Positions 25,455-44,427 of a DNA stretch of 64,000 nucleotides are shown here, one piece after another; within the stretch, counting starts at the first letter, position 1; every line of letters starts with the position of its first letter. The position numbers and the translations under genes are program-made. This DNA comes from Octopus vulgaris (taxonomy: Eukaryota), in NCBI GenBank assembly GCA_951406725.2, contig OX597817.1, forward strand, positions 2,914,001-2,978,000, in the 5' to 3' direction. The notes beneath the pieces are model-generated. The model searched no databases. It was not told the origin of the DNA and saw only the letters and a program-made list of their open reading frames with translations.

Positions 25455-25496
25455 ATATGTCCGACGAACGGGAACGTGAAACTCTGAGTAACAGAT
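25455..25496 (+). ncRNA. Minimal hammerhead candidate, U4C core variant
   Basis: AUAUGU-CCGACGA-ACG(GGAA)CGU-GAAA-CUCUGAG-UA-ACAGAU. Confidence 0.5.
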
Positions 25497-26134
25497 TTTG
25501 TGATATTTTTGCTGCCTTTTAACAAAGTATATATATATATATATATACTTTATTAAATGGAGTCGCATGAAACGATCGTACTGCATCACTTCTGGATATC
25601 TTTGTTGCTTTTTTTTTTAATCACCTTATTTTGAAATTGTATGGATAATACCGTACTACATTCTGGTGCCTCAACTTAAGTACCATATTCATCTGAATCT
25701 AAACTTTTACTGAACTCACACACACACACACACACACACATATATATATATATATATATATATATATATATATATATATATATATATATATATATATATA
25801 TAAACACGCACACACAACCATATACAAACATGTGTGCATATATATATATATATATATATATATATATATACATACTCACACACACATACATGTGTGCATG
25901 CATGCAGTAAAGTGAAATTGACACTGCAAGATAAAGTCTTTTAAATTATAGTCACGTGCCTCACATCCGTTTCGATTGTCACTTTGACATCCATTTAGAC
26001 ACTTCCCTGTACAAATACCGCAGCTTCATATTCATATTCTATTTGCACGCTCAGTTTCTGTCTCTTTGACACACTTCTCTATACAGATGCTAGTAAGTGA
26101 CCTTCATATCGCATACGTAACTTTATATATCTTT

Positions 26135-26315
26135 AGCTTTTACTTGTTTCAGTCATTAGACTCCGGCCATGCTGGAGCACCGCTTTGAAGAGTTTTTAGT
26201 TGAATGAATCCTTTCCATTACTGTTTGTTTTTGATTTGATAAACCTGGTGCACTTATTCCACAGGTCTCTTTTGCCGAACTGCTAAGTTATGAGGACATA
26301 AACAGAACGACACCG
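26135..26315 (-). mobile_element. SINE family B, 3' half, inverted relative to the adjacent copy
   Basis: TTTTACTTGTTTCAGTCATT...GGCCATGCTGGAGCACCGC...TTTTGCCGAAC is the reverse complement of 26640-26795. Confidence 0.75.
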
Positions 26316-26364
26316 TATGTGTGGATATATATATATATATATATATATATATATACATACATCC

Positions 26365-26795
26365 TGGTTGTGTGGTAAGTAGCTTGCTTGCCAACCACAT
26401 GGTTCCGGGATCAATCCTACTGCGTGGCACCTTGGGCAAGTGTCTTCTACTATAGCCTCGGGCCGACCAAAGCCTTGTAAGTGGATTTGGTAGACGGAAA
26501 CTGAAGGAAGCCTGTCGCATATATGTATATATATATATATATATATATATATATATATGTGTGTGTGTGTGTGTGTGTGTGTGTATGTGTGTTTGTGTTT
26601 GTCTGTGTTTGTACCCGCAACATCGGTTGACAACCGATGCTGGTGTGTTTATGTCCCCGTAACTTAGCGGTTCGGCAAACGAGCGCGATAGGATAAGTAC
26701 TAGGCTTCCAAAGAATAAGTTCTGGGGTCGATTTGCTCGACAAAAGGCGATGCTCCAGCATGGCCGCAGTTAAATGACTAAAACAAGTAAAAGAG
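26365..26795 (+). mobile_element. SINE family B (head GTGGCTGTGTGGTAAG; internal (TA)n/(TG)n microsatellite)
   Basis: Near full length: GGTTCCGGGATCAATCC B-box, CACCTTGGGCAAGT motif, internal microsatellite, 3' GCTCCAGCATGGCCGCAGT...AAACAAGTAAAAGAG. Many homologues in the window. Confidence 0.85.
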
Positions 26796-28231
26796 TAGTG
26801 GAATTTGAACTCAGGATGCAAAGATTCAGAAAAACAATATCGCGATTCATTACATCCATCCCGCTAACGACTCTGCGAATTGTCCACCATGTTGAATGAA
26901 AAACTGATGCTTGGTGGATCTGAAATTTTTTAAAATTATTTTATCGAGTCCTTTTGTGTCTGTATATTTTACATAGTAGAGAGGTTAGGAAAGTTAACTA
27001 CGACACACTAATTTTAAAATTAGGAAATTTCAATGTCGTCTAAAGGAAACAAATTTACGCTCCGACTGCTGATTCCCATGGCTTGGAAGCATGTCCTTCA
27101 TTGCTACCATTGGCCTACTTTTGGTTGTGGAGACAACATTGTACATTACATAACATTGGAATGATGTCCATTACATCAGTAACGTCATAAATATATAAGC
27201 TCCATAGAACAATACGAATTAATCAGGGCTGAGATATATTATGGGCTTGACGAAGAATCCTCTTTAAGAAGATTCAATAATGCCATATATGTGAAACAAT
27301 GAAATATCAGGAGACATTGTAAGGGTAATTTAGTCTTAGATACTGTGTGTCTGAATGAAAAAATGGAAAAGAAAAAAGAATGAGGTGGGCATGGCAGTGA
27401 TTCCGGAGTTTACTTAAACTTATACAACAATAGGTTGATTGGGAGTCTCATGCCAGTCAAGTTCCAAGAAATTGTTATCAATGACAACAAAGCGTTGCTT
27501 TAACAGAAGCTCTCAAGGGATGAACTTCATTTGAGTATGTATCGTAGAAGTTTGTCCTTATATAAACCACACACACACACACACACACACACACACACAC
27601 GCATTCTCGCACGCACACACACATTCACAAACACCCATGCACAGAAATATGTGTATGCGTTTGCGTGCGTAGATAAACGCGCGTTTATTTAAATGTTGAC
27701 TACGAGCAGATCATCTGTTTCGGGCTGTGCAATAGATTCTCATTCGGTCCTAATATTGAATATACCTCTATATGGCCTAAAATTTAGAATGCTATGTCCC
27801 TTGTTAAAGGTAACGATACAAAGGAGGAGAGAATAATTCAATGATCATGCAAGTCTGTGTTTCAGGTAGACCTTTATGAATGTTAAATAATTAACTGTTT
27901 ATCTAATAGGGAAGCTCTTGTCAGTTGTTGACGTTTATTTCTAAAACAAACTGCAAAGATATCAACCGTAACCAAATGAATCACACCCTGTTGCACACTA
28001 CGGTTTTTTTTTCTTGTTTTTTTTCACATCCCCACGTATAGTTCAGTATTTAATAATACTCTTACACATCCACTTAAATTGGATTTGGAGTTCACTAAAT
28101 TATGGCTCTTGCAACAGTTTTAATATTCGTTGATATTTTCGTCCAGTAATTCGGTGGAGGTGTCTAAGAACATAACTCGTCTCGTTAAATGCACAAATAT
28201 GTTCGAAACCAGCCTCAGTTGATTTTAAATA

Positions 28232-41410: not shown

Positions 41411-41565
41411 ACAGAAGATTAATATCAAAAGATTTTATTTGTTATTTACATTTCATTTAGCTTTAAGTATTTCGCATATCTTTGTGTTTTGCTTGCCTTG
41501 CATTCATACAGAAAATGATATCGTTCAAAGGATATTTAGGACTACGCTCTCTAATGTGGTCATGC

Positions 41566-41850
41566 TTTTGCTTAAGACAATGGGATACGATGTGACAGGC
41601 ATTTCTGCTTTATGTAGCAGGCTAGGCGACAACGTCACAGCTTCTTTGCTAGGCTTAATGTGTGCATATAATCGTGCTTTTAGAATTTCATTGAAGAGTG
41701 CAAGTATCTGTGGGCTTTTACTTAAGACAATAGGATTCAATTTGACGATATCTAAAAGGCTGGACGACAACGTTAAGGCTTCTTGTTAGGCGTTATGTAT
41801 GCATATGATACTGCTTCAGAATTACATTTAAGAGTGCAAGCATTTGTGGA
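41566..41850 (+). repeat. Diverged tandem dimer, about 140-bp unit
   Basis: CTTAAGACAAT...GACAACGT...AAGAGTGCAAG...TGTGG occurs twice in tandem. Confidence 0.75.
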
Positions 41851-44277
41851 ACACTCTGTTACATTACAGCAAAAGTTATTGTGTTGCATTGACCTTACGG
41901 GGACATTCTTTCGTGGATAACGGCACGAGACTATTATACACACTCATTGCTTTGTAAATGTATTTGTCGACTGTATCTCCTCACATAAGAGTATAATTTG
42001 GTTGGCGTAATCGTTTTGTTTGGGGGGAAAATTCTCACACGTTGCAGCGAACTGTACATGCGTAGAGATAATGATTCATGCGCGTACGCACAGAACACGA
42101 TATACATTCCACACATAATTTTTTAAACTTGCGAGTGTGTCCATACATTTAGCCAATCAATCATTGCACACATACGCGTACACGCACGCACACACACACA
42201 CGCACATACACAGGCGTGTTTATTCATCGTATTGCGTACGTGTATACGAGCATGTATCCACATAGCAAATAATATACGTTTTGATCAGTCTATCTATCTA
42301 TCTACACACACACACACACACATATATATATATATATACATAAATACATATGTATAGGTGTGTGTGTATTTATATACACACACACATATATATATATGTA
42401 TGTGTGTGTATATTCTTTATATTGAGATATATTTACATGATATAATAAATATACTCTTACACATCTTTGCAAACATTCATATAGAAACCCCCAACCCTAG
42501 GTCCTTTCTTTCTTTTATCGTCTTCAACAGGCTCACTGACACGTTTACACAGTCGCAGACTCCCTCTCAGTCTCTTCTGTTACATACATACATGCGTACA
42601 TACATAGATACATACATACATACATATATATATATATATATATATATATATATATATATATATACACCCACACGCACACATAGTGATATCTCCTTTTGCA
42701 GCGTATCCCCTATTAGTCTTACACACATACACACACACACACACACACACACACACACACACACACACACACACACACACACACACACGTTCTTCCACGC
42801 ATATATATCTGACGAAAATAAGAGCTAAAGAGAATAAAGAATGATAAGCAGTAAATAAGAGGAAAGAAACCATAAAATGTCTGATCTAAAACTGCTGTTT
42901 GCTTATCCCAAGAGACATCGTCTAAGAATGTGATAGAAGGGAATATGCCATAAAAATATATAAAGAAAGACCTATTAAAGATGAAGATAATCATGAGTAA
43001 CAAGAGACTGGTTTACGGAACAACTAGTTGTGCGGAGGAAGATAAGTTAACAATGCAGAAATTGCTTTCAGGACACAAGAATGCACGTGTGTGCTATATA
43101 TATATAGATATAAAACTTACACGAACACAAGCACACACATATGCGCACCCACACATATTTGCATGCACGCACGCATGTATACATATTGCAAGCTCAGGAT
43201 TGGTTAACGCGCCCTACATTGGCATCCTTTCTTTTCTCCACTTTTCACAACAACCATCTTTCTCTCTTCCCCCGTCTCTCTCTTCCTTTCTTTCAGTAAC
43301 ATGCATTTGACACCTCCTCTCATACCAACCTCCTCCTCCTCATTCCCTCTTTTCTGTCAGAATTTACAGATCATTTCCACACCTCACAATCTCCATCCTC
43401 ATATCCTCGTTTACTTCCTGTCTCCACATGTTAACCACTTCTCTTAATTTGAGTCTTCCACCTGCTAATAAATTGCATTACTACTCACTCCATCAAACAC
43501 TTTGACCAAGGTTTACTAAGCATTATCTCAAACACAAATTCAAATCAAAACTAACCGTATCACTTTGATCACGAAGTGTCAAAATTTTACCCATATCTGA
43601 CAGCAACTTCGTATAGGAAAAAGTAGCGCAAACATCATTATAGCAAACATTACTAAACACCTCGCAGGATTGATCGATACAAGGCCTTTAATTATACCTG
43701 AAGGCTTCACTGATGACAGAAATATGGAGAGCACTCTGCCTAACAATGATAAATGCTTTCACTGATTTTCCTTTTAAGACTTAATCTAAGGACAAATACC
43801 TGATCCAGTCAAGTCCCTTTTTCTAATTATTCCTCAAGCATTTGTAAAATATGAACCTTCAGTTCTGTTTGTTAGAATTTATATTTATTGGTGTCAGAAT
43901 TTCCAAACGAGTAGGAGTAGGGAACAAATGCATGTATGTATATATGTATGTATGTACGTATGTATGTATGTACGTACTTATGTACGTATGAAGTCTAATT
44001 CTGTTTAACTCTCTCTCTCTCTCTCTCTCTCTCTCTCTATATATATATATATATATATATATATATATATATATATATATATTTATACATACACACACAC
44101 ACACATATATATATTACGGAGATGTACTTGCATAGCAAGTCACCTGATCTGAGATCGTGTGCTGGAACGAAAACATTTGCAGCATGGAAGATGTTTATAG
44201 CCATTTAAGAAACACAAACAAACACAAACAAACAAAAAACAAAATACGGCTAGATTCACTTGAACATTTAAATCTAA

Positions 44278-44328
44278 TTTGTCAAAATATTTTCGTCGCT
44301 TTGAGACCGCTACCTGTTCACTGACAAA
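44278..44328 (-). ncRNA. Minimal hammerhead candidate, G3-C8 core variant
   Basis: UUUGUCA-GUGAACA-G-GUAGC(9 nt)GCGAC-GAAA-AUAU-UU-UGACAAA. Confidence 0.5.
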
Positions 44329-44376
44329 ATTCCGTGCTGCAGCAGATAATGTTAAGTAAACCTTGTAGCACGGAAT

Positions 44377-44427
44377 TTTGTTAGTGAACAGGTCGCGGTC
44401 TCAAAGCGACGAAAATATTTTGGCAAA
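44377..44427 (+). ncRNA. Minimal hammerhead candidate, G3-C8 core variant (mirror copy)
   Basis: UUUGUUA-GUGAACA-G-GUCGC(9 nt)GCGAC-GAAA-AUAU-UU-UGGCAAA. Confidence 0.5.

What the first reader, a model, noticed from the sequence alone, without database searches (positions are those of the whole stretch)
25455..44427. Series of minimal hammerhead-like folds with a covarying 3-8 core pair (C-G, U-A, G-C)
Seen: four unrelated repeat remnants near TA repeats share one architecture: stem I, 7-nt core, optional extra nucleotide, stem II hairpin, GAAA, short palindromic stem III, UH, stem I'. The cores read CUGACGA (38771-38777, minus), UUGAAAA (38461), GUGAACA (44384 and 44315-44321) and CCGACGA (25461). 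Positions 3 and 8 stay Watson-Crick complementary in every case. Established: C3-G8 is a tertiary pair of the hammerhead, and Penelope-like retroelements carry minimal hammerheads with palindromic stem III that can cleave as dimers. Inference: cephalopod PLE families have diversified the catalytic core by compensatory change, so CUGANGA-based searches would miss them.
Basis: partly seen in the sequence, partly recalled or inferred. Interest (0 to 1): 0.8.

Follow-up and report, generated by a model that had tools for sequence, protein, structure and literature searches.

The report
Penelope hammerheads with swapped core pairs
These are broken end-pieces of four abundant repeat families, three of them tied to Penelope-type jumping genes, each carrying a small predicted self-cutting RNA motif; two paired core letters have changed together three ways across related families, including a G-C swap I did not find reported from nature, but cutting is untested.

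Summary
The motifs are real and are minimal type I hammerhead folds at the 3' ends of four repeat families. Three families lie downstream of Penelope-like (PLE) GIY-YIG endonuclease sequence elsewhere in the genome: B (U3-A8), C (G3-C8) and D (C3-G8 with U4C). Family A is canonical and was not linked. So only two of the four carry a changed 3-8 pair, and most window copies are damaged. Genome-wide the covariation holds. In 790 kb sampled, 17 of 19 hits pair at 3-8 (shuffles give under one hit per 400 kb) and only 3 of 19 read CUGANGA. Three related PLE families carry G3-C8, U3-A8 and C3-G8 in look-alike hammerheads. One tandem family shows C3-G8 (83), U3-G8 wobble (9), U3-A8 (8) and no C3-A8 in 100 listed copies. 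U3-A8 in PLEs is published; natural G3-C8 was not found in my searches, but Lunse 2017 was unavailable. Cleavage is not shown: 0 of 30 family C copies begin at the cut site and RNA reads show no end pile-up. The scan noted this G3-C8 variant before, on other pieces of this genome. New variant of a known kind.

The parts
38747..38781 (-). Family A hammerhead fold, canonical core CUGACGA (C3-G8), extra A, 4-bp stem II, stem III palindrome ACGU, predicted cut after 38751
   Evidence: sequence; descriptor hit; family copies 98-99% alike
38660..38955 (-). Family A repeat remnant between (TA)n runs; no ORF link shown
38458..38492 (+). Family B hammerhead fold, core UUGAAAA (U3-A8), extra U, 5-bp stem II, palindrome AUAU; stem I broken in this copy (1 bp; family 3 bp)
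38441..38597 (+). Family B PLE 3' end (forward arm); a 5' splice-donor-like AG|GUAAGU follows stem I'
38295..38431 (-). Family B inverted, 5'-truncated arm; core at 38431-38425 without the 5' arm of stem I
44377..44427 (+). Family C hammerhead fold, core GUGAACA (G3-C8), extra G, 5-bp stem II, palindrome AAUAUU, 7-bp stem I, predicted cut after 44420
44364..44461 (+). Family C PLE 3' fragment (forward arm)
44278..44328 (-). Second family C fold (core 44321-44315), perfect 7-bp stem I, one mismatch in stem II
44114..44341 (-). Family C inverted arm running through the 3' tail into (TA)n
25457..25495 (+). Family D hammerhead fold, core CCGACGA (C3-G8 kept, U4C), 3-bp stem II, stem III ACUCUGAGU, predicted cut after 25490; 5' arm of stem I truncated
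25458..25530 (+). Family D PLE 3' fragment ending in (TA)n

Best explanation
These are 5'-truncated, partly inverted 3' ends of four multi-copy repeat families sitting at (TA)n runs, three of them shown downstream of Penelope-like endonuclease sequence, and each carries a minimal type I hammerhead fold whose 3-8 core pair has likely been kept by selection for self-cleavage in the parent elements while its letters changed (C-G, U-A, G-C). Shown: the folds, the families, the ORF links for B, C and D, and complementarity at 3-8 across families. Inferred from published PLE hammerheads: in the parent element two copies pair through the palindromic stem III (D could fold alone), probably helped by the element's protein, and cut the RNA slowly after U-H17; position 8 contributes its 2'-OH and its pairing with position 3, so a swapped pair is tolerated. 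C-G to U-A likely went through a U-G wobble, which survives as subfamilies. G3-C8 needs two changes through a mismatch; that would be passable because uncut RNA is what gets copied into DNA. The window copies themselves are passive, decaying insertions.
For: Family C: 1,079 exact matches to a 35-nt pattern open at 3, 4, 7, 8 (reversed control 0); 92 of the first 100 listed are G3-C8, 0 are C3-G8. Its two common stem I polymorphisms keep pairing (56 of 69 copies). RT-thumb, Cys-linker and GIY-YIG sequence lies 0.8-2.2 kb upstream on the same strand in 3 of 21 long loci, on three contigs (Pfam GIY-YIG E=0.0023, below the curated cut-off); no YUGAnRA core in the four C 3' regions scanned. Family B: endonuclease C-terminus about 100 nt upstream in L033, L051, L053; 32 of 42 pattern matches UUGAAAA, 4 UUGAGGA. 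Family D: endonuclease remnants upstream on the same strand in 7 of 30 loci plus L126. Sampled DNA outside the window: 19 hits in 790 kb, 17 Watson-Crick at 3-8 (9 C-G, 8 U-A); shuffles 0.82 hits (0.18 paired) for 454 kb including the window and 0.66 (0.18) for 400 kb. Related families: H (U3-A8) downstream of its endonuclease in 11 of 20 loci, K (C3-G8) in 17 of 20; C, H and K endonucleases are 39-60% identical pairwise and share the extra G and a GUY-started stem II. Family E: 83 C3-G8, 9 U3-G8, 8 U3-A8, 0 C3-A8 in the first 100 of 1,452, with two alternative stem III palindromes. In vitro the G-C swap rescues: partial rescue in the Anolis PLE hammerhead (PMC11167929); the only rescue in that region in a full pairwise scan (PMC9901934).
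Against: No cleavage shown. 0 of 30 family C copies begin at the predicted cut; their 5' ends lie 20-100 nt upstream. About 3,500 RNA reads from three runs of one coded organism show no place where many molecules begin or end, and both strands are covered about equally (fragmented cDNA libraries, weak test). In PMC9901934 all changes in the CUGA region other than the G-C swap were low in activity, which counts against U3-A8 and U4C in that context. K mostly has A9C (10 of 18, only 2 A9), so some families tolerate core damage. Family B has a 3-bp stem I only. Predicted minimum-energy folds give the hammerhead stems I+II only for C (44384) and the stem III dimer only for C. The tree does not resolve C/H/K as a clade without B, so the order of changes is unknown. 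Family A has no ORF link. 18 of 21 long C loci had no upstream endonuclease on the motif's strand with an intact motif by my regex.
Confidence: 0.75

Rival explanations
1. The folds descend from hammerheads but the variant ones no longer cut; the shape is kept as a binding or folding signal for the element's RT, and the 3-8 pair is kept for structure only.
For: No copies or reads end at the cut site; K has A9C and D has U4C; cleavage was not needed for insertion in vitro in the Anolis PLE (PMC11167929); min-HHRs cut poorly in vitro (PMC4209133).
Against: The 3-8 pair forms in the catalytically arranged core (PMC3884650); G5, A6, G12-A14, A15.1-U16.1 and H17 are kept in A-D; the same lack of cut ends was reported for the Anolis hammerhead, which does cut with protein.
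Confidence: 0.17
2. The family C motif is not a hammerhead: it is a 3' exon or promoter-proximal sequence of the element that mimics the fold, constrained by coding or splicing.
For: A branch point, pyrimidine run and AG lie 22 nt before the core and two reading frames stay open across the motif; Rfam gives no hammerhead hit.
Against: Every other core position, the extra nucleotide, the G10.1-C11.1 pair, a 6-nt palindrome and a 7-bp stem I fit; related families H and K have the same layout with U3-A8 and C3-G8; no other hammerhead core was found in the C 3' region; Rfam also misses canonical A.
Confidence: 0.05
3. Chance folds in AT-rich, repeat-rich DNA picked out by a loose pattern.
For: 4 of the 6 window copies fail the strict descriptor; single hits such as L184, L217 and L005 may be chance.
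Against: Hits exceed shuffles about 13-fold and are 17 of 19 paired at 3-8, where about a quarter would be expected; they fall into multi-copy families at a fixed place behind PLE endonucleases.
Confidence: 0.03

Closest known systems
Minimal type I hammerheads (min-HHR) of metazoan Penelope-like elements (Cervera and de la Pena 2014, PMC4209133; read parts 1-2 of 4 and supplement passages)
   Same: Short stem I, extra nucleotide between 9 and 10.1, G10.1-C11.1, palindromic stem III, place at the PLE end, many truncated and inverted copies, several families per genome; U3-A8 covariation reported in Schistosoma mansoni (about 1,300 hits).
   Different: G3-C8 and U4C families are not in the parts read; here three pairs occur in related PLE families and wobble intermediates form subfamilies; D has A10.1-U11.1 and no extra nucleotide.
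Natural hammerhead core variants (Perreault et al. 2011, PMC3088659; section 8 read)
   Same: C3-G8 covaries to U3-A8 in nature.
   Different: Section 8 text names no G3-C8; those were scattered examples, not families of a thousand copies.
Poseidon element hammerhead of Anolis (PMC11167929; passages read)
   Same: PLE hammerhead; engineered C3G/G8C partly restores cutting; no RNA reads end at the cut; uncut RNA is the insertion template.
   Different: There G3-C8 is a laboratory mutant and the ORF starts inside the ribozyme; here it is the natural family state and lies 0.8-2.2 kb behind the ORF.
Dimer-cleaving short-stem-III hammerheads of PLEs (Lunse, Weinberg, Breaker, RNA Biol 14:1499; not held, known only through the review PMC6765202, passages read)
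   Same: Palindromic short stem III, PLE association, dimer model.
   Different: Could not check whether that collection already holds G3-C8 or U4C.
Animal non-LTR retrozymes (PMC7229834, passages; bioRxiv 10.64898/2026.07.22.740005, part 1 of 5)
   Same: Family E outside the window is a 360-bp tandem repeat with one type I hammerhead per unit.
   Different: The four window families are dispersed 3' fragments, not tandem arrays.

Membership tests
Hammerhead ribozyme (type I) | Three-stem junction with stems I and II and G12-A13-A14, A15.1-U16.1, H17 | tested here: met
   at family level; four of six window copies are damaged in one stem
Hammerhead ribozyme (type I) | Core consensus CUGANGA | tested here: not met
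   met by A only; B UUGAAAA, C GUGAACA, D CCGACGA. B is a published variant type; C and D are therefore filed as variants, not as consensus members
Hammerhead ribozyme (type I) | Watson-Crick pair between positions 3 and 8 | tested here: met
   C 92 of 100; B majority U3-A8 with a U3-G8 minority; 17 of 19 sampled hits
Hammerhead ribozyme (type I) | Match to an Rfam hammerhead model | tested here: not met
   canonical A is missed too, so the test has little power for minimal forms; D was covered only by the whole-window scan
Hammerhead ribozyme (type I) | Site-specific self-cleavage | not testable with these tools
   indirect tests gave no sign: 0 of 30 copy ends, no read-end pile-up
PLE min-HHR | Palindromic stem III, extra nucleotide after A9, G10.1-C11.1 | tested here: met
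   A, B, C meet all three; D has a palindrome with an odd centre, no extra nucleotide, A10.1-U11.1
PLE min-HHR | Cleavage as dimer | not testable with these tools
   cofold gave a stem III dimer for 1 of 6 window copies; not a test of activity
Penelope-like element (EN+) | RT followed by C-terminal GIY-YIG endonuclease upstream of the motif | tested here: met
   C; B: (thumb region and endonuclease); D: (RT and endonuclease in L126). No intact ORF recovered for any of them
Penelope-like element (EN+) | The same link for family A | tested here: inconclusive
   neighbouring intact ORF in L121 belongs to another element; no search left for longer A copies
Penelope-like element (EN+) | Inverted 5'-truncated copies, optional 3' tail, microsatellite targets (PMC8557442 passages) | tested here: met
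Penelope-like element (EN+) | Clade (Neptune, Nematis, Poseidon) by RT phylogeny | not tested
   Cys-rich linker before the endonuclease in B, C, H, K suggests Neptune/Nematis type by the description in PMC8557442; no reference proteins were compared

The most novel reading that the evidence does not exclude
One lineage of Penelope-like elements has walked the hammerhead's catalytic 3-8 pair through three Watson-Crick identities while staying an active ribozyme, including a natural G3-C8 swap fixed in over a thousand copies that had to cross a mismatch valley; wobble intermediates survive as subfamilies, and most hammerheads in such genomes are invisible to CUGANGA searches, so some PLE clades said to lack hammerheads may carry swapped cores.
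Probability: 0.45. Interest if true: 0.65.

Novelty: new variant of a known kind. Interest (0 to 1): 0.45.

Why it matters
Whether PLE hammerheads are under selection to cut is open (PMC8557442 says their function is unclear and that they may simply ride along). Compensatory change at a tertiary pair of the catalytic core, repeated in several families, is comparative evidence for selection on the active fold. It also hands over a natural mutational series (C-G, U-G, U-A in near-identical flanks; G-C in a related clade) for direct kinetic tests, and it shows that censuses built on CUGANGA would undercount strongly here (3 of 19 sampled hits). The chemistry and the element class are known, which caps the interest.

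Tried and rejected
Rfam scans: only miRNA-type hairpin and microsatellite matches, rejected as artefacts of inverted and simple repeats. Linking A to the intact 955-codon PLE frame next to one copy: rejected, that element has another 3' end with its own CUGAAGA hammerhead; Pfam found no family in that frame. An A3-U8 candidate (L005): single locus, no family in the fetched DNA, rejected; no A3-U8 family was seen, but there was no genome-wide search for one. A spliced-junction reading of short C copies ending in GAG|AUG: not accepted, several are inversion junctions. Sequencing-run search: no RNA holder listed. Family E in RNA: 2, 0 and 0 reads in three runs, no test. Endonuclease tree: C, H, K, B left as an open fork. 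Upstream all-against-all comparison of the first 30 C loci found no ORF; the link came from copies that carry the acceptor-like stretch. Literature searches for natural G3-C8 listed only laboratory mutants in the papers I then opened; Lunse 2017 was not held; supplement file 1 of PMC4209133 was not searchable, figures are not held, and I did not look at supplements of PMC8557442 or PMC3088659; any of these may already show G3-C8.
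Full report
Observation. The five cores are at the stated coordinates, and a sixth sits in the inverted arm at 38431. I call the families A (38777, minus, CUGACGA), B (38461, UUGAAAA), C (44384 and 44321, GUGAACA) and D (25461, CCGACGA). Positions 3 and 8 are complementary in all, but A and D both have the ordinary C3-G8; D differs at position 4. 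A strict descriptor that left 3 and 8 free found 2 of the 6 copies, A and C at 44384, against 0.125 hits per shuffled window and 0.025 with a paired 3-8 (200 shuffles). The other four copies have a damaged stem. Rfam reported no hammerhead among the rows shown.

Each motif belongs to a multi-copy family. The window lies in G000, a 2.8-Gb assembly. DNA searches gave 498 (C), 957 (B), 699 (D) and 1,331 (A) first-look candidates, 40 scored each. Copies are 5'-truncated, often paired with an inverted arm, mostly end in (TA)n, and have an optional 3' tail, as described for PLE insertions (PMC8557442, passages). In the families the stems are better than in the window: A stem I 4 bp, B 3 bp, C 7 bp, D 8 bp. 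For C, a 35-nt pattern open at positions 3, 4, 7 and 8 has 1,079 exact matches (reversed control 0); of the first 100 listed, 92 are G3-C8, 2 G3-U8, 3 U3-C8, 2 G3-G8, 1 A3-A8 and none C3-G8 (counted from the listing). A downstream 30-mer has 2,370 matches. The two common stem I polymorphisms of C both keep pairing through G-U (56 of 69 copies). For B the pattern has 42 matches: 32 UUGAAAA, 4 UUGAGGA (U3-G8 wobble), 6 single changes, one of them C3-A8. For D, 27 of 44 copies in the fetched loci read CCGACGA and 1 CUGACGA; for A, 24 of 45 read CUGACGA and 16 CCGACGA. Within-family uniformity mostly reflects descent from a master copy, so it is not itself evidence of selection.

Link to Penelope-like ORFs. 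B: copies L033, L051 and L053 run upstream into a Cys-rich linker and a GIY-YIG C-terminus ending about 100 nt before the core (L037 and L053 hold the same place). C: among 21 long loci chosen for an acceptor-like stretch, RT-thumb, Cys linker and GIY-YIG sequence lies 0.8-2.2 kb upstream on the same strand in 3 (L168, L169, L173, three contigs), collinear through a low-complexity 3' region; L161 has a weak remnant, and L162 and L163 (near-identical duplicates) have the ORF downstream of a C copy. Pfam GIY-YIG scores E=0.0023, under the curated cut-off. No C/U-UGA-N-G/A-A core followed by GAAA was found in four C 3' regions, so the G3-C8 fold is the only hammerhead candidate there. D: endonuclease remnants lie upstream on the same strand in 7 of 30 loci from a search with the D upstream region, and RT plus endonuclease in L126; the motif itself was confirmed downstream in only some of these (L249, L268, L126). 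A: one copy sits just before an intact 955-codon PLE frame, but that element has a different 3' end with its own hammerhead, so A is unlinked.

Is the covariation real? I scanned 79 stretches of 10 kb not chosen for any motif (10 beside the window, 69 at round coordinates; L197 left out because it was fetched on purpose). Leaving out the window's own two hits, there were 19 hits: 9 C-G, 8 U-A, 1 C-A (a damaged A copy), 1 A-G; none G-C or A-U. Shuffles gave 0.82 hits (0.18 paired) for the first set with the window and 0.66 (0.18) for the second. Only 3 of the 19 read CUGANGA; 6 have C4 with C3-G8. The descriptor limited position 4 to U or C and demanded intact stems, and the sample is 0.03% of the genome. 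Further U3-A8 families appeared (F, G, H, I, part of E). Two comparisons are the most telling. First, H (UUGAAAA) and K (CUGAUGA/C) share with C an extra G and a stem II starting GUY, and lie behind their own endonucleases in 11 of 20 and 17 of 20 loci. These endonucleases are 39-60% identical to each other and to that of C, against 21-36% for the longer B fragment and no significant match to D. The tree supports C and K as groups but leaves C, H, K and B in an open fork, so the order of changes is unknown. Second, family E, a 360-bp tandem repeat with dispersed relatives, has 1,452 matches to one pattern; the first 100 listed are 83 C3-G8 (all with C4), 9 U3-G8 and 8 U3-A8 (all with U4), none C3-A8 (tandem copies are not independent). 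Its stem III is one palindrome in C3 copies and another in U3-A8 copies, with both among U3-G8 copies. This is the pattern expected of a compensatory path through a wobble; direction is not shown.

How it likely works. Shown: anatomy, families, ORF links, complementarity. Inferred from print: metazoan min-HHRs cut weakly and only as dimers or with an extended stem III (PMC4209133, parts 1-2 of 4); the C3-G8 pair forms in the rearranged active core (PMC3884650, passages); the 2'-OH of G8 is the proposed general acid (PMC6155905, passages); single changes at 3 or 8 kill and the G-C swap partly rescues, also in a PLE hammerhead that needs the element's protein and whose cutting is not needed for insertion in vitro (PMC11167929, passages; PMC8495972, passage). 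So the variant folds most likely cut slowly in tandem transcripts of the parent elements, and a master element could pass through a mismatched state without losing mobility. That last step is my inference.

Results against. None of 30 C copies, picked by a pattern downstream of the cut, begins at the predicted cut: 14 begin 54-64 nt upstream, around an AG preceded by a branch-point-like and pyrimidine stretch, 7 share one hairpin junction 34 nt upstream, and the other 9 scatter from 20 to 100 nt upstream. RNA reads from three runs of one coded organism (1,406, 1,072 and 1,030 laid, about 6% of each run read) cover both strands alike, with no end pile-up; these libraries are a weak test and the organism may not be that of G000. 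In a full pairwise scan of a type III hammerhead only the G-C swap rescued; other changes in that region, which would include U3-A8 and U4C, were low (PMC9901934, passages), while PMC3088659 (section 8) reports natural U3-A8 and cites activity in vitro. K mostly carries A9C. Energy minimisation favours the hammerhead stems only for C.

What is known. Min-HHRs in PLEs and their U3-A8 variant are published (PMC4209133; supplement passages show only CUGA and UUGA cores). Natural G3-C8 was not found by eight searches or in the papers opened: besides those above, PMC6765202, PMC6962438 and PMC7229834 (passages) and bioRxiv 10.64898/2026.07.22.740005 (part 1 of 5). Lunse et al., the largest collection of such variants by my recollection, was not held, and figures and several supplements were not seen. 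Earlier notes of this scan, read after my analysis, describe a G3-C8 family and the 359-bp repeat on other pieces of this genome and G3-C8 candidates behind PLE RTs in other genomes; they are unchecked and are not counted as support.

Verdict. Works like, and is filed as, a variant of the PLE minimal hammerhead; activity unproven. New variant of a known kind; interest 0.45.

Noticed in passing
G000:C1 loci L360-L396; L178:5635, L343:7625: Family E: 360-bp tandem, near-identical units with a CCGAYGA hammerhead (retrozyme-like), and dispersed relatives with UUGAYGA and UUGAUAA cores and a switched stem III palindrome.
   Followed up: partly
L218-L247; window 44364: 5' ends of family C copies pile up around an AG 22 nt before the core that follows a branch-point-like and pyrimidine stretch; could be a start site or a splice acceptor. 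A donor-like GU follows the ORF end in long copies.
   Followed up: partly
L229, L230, L234, L236, L237, L239, L245: 7 of 30 family C copies share one identical inversion junction, so a fixed hairpin unit with one intact and one truncated hammerhead has itself been amplified.
   Followed up: partly
L144:1202, L298-L317: Family K hammerhead mostly reads CUGAUGC (A9C), with a non-palindromic stem III centre; a sister subfamily keeps A9.
   Followed up: partly
L121:2914-5778: Intact 955-codon PLE frame (RT, Cys linker, GIY-YIG) with a very long AT-rich 3' region and its own CUGAAGA hammerhead with a long stem II; no Pfam hit.
   Followed up: partly
window 38499-38506: A 5' splice-donor-like AG|GUAAGU directly follows the family B hammerhead in nearly all copies shown.
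   Followed up: no
L156:1498-1680 in runs X21-X23: RNA reads on family C show many A>G and T>C differences that the contig run X18 lacks, as expected of A-to-I editing of inverted copies; no matched DNA, so unproven.
   Followed up: no
L180:5040, L198:8152, L123:3759, L203:8996, L205:8169: Further hammerhead families F, G, I (U3-A8) and J (canonical); G relatives differ by paired changes in stem I and in the stem III palindrome. ORF links not tested.
   Followed up: partly
window 33999-34298: 166-bp unit repeated 1.8 times, a common dispersed repeat; not examined.
   Followed up: no
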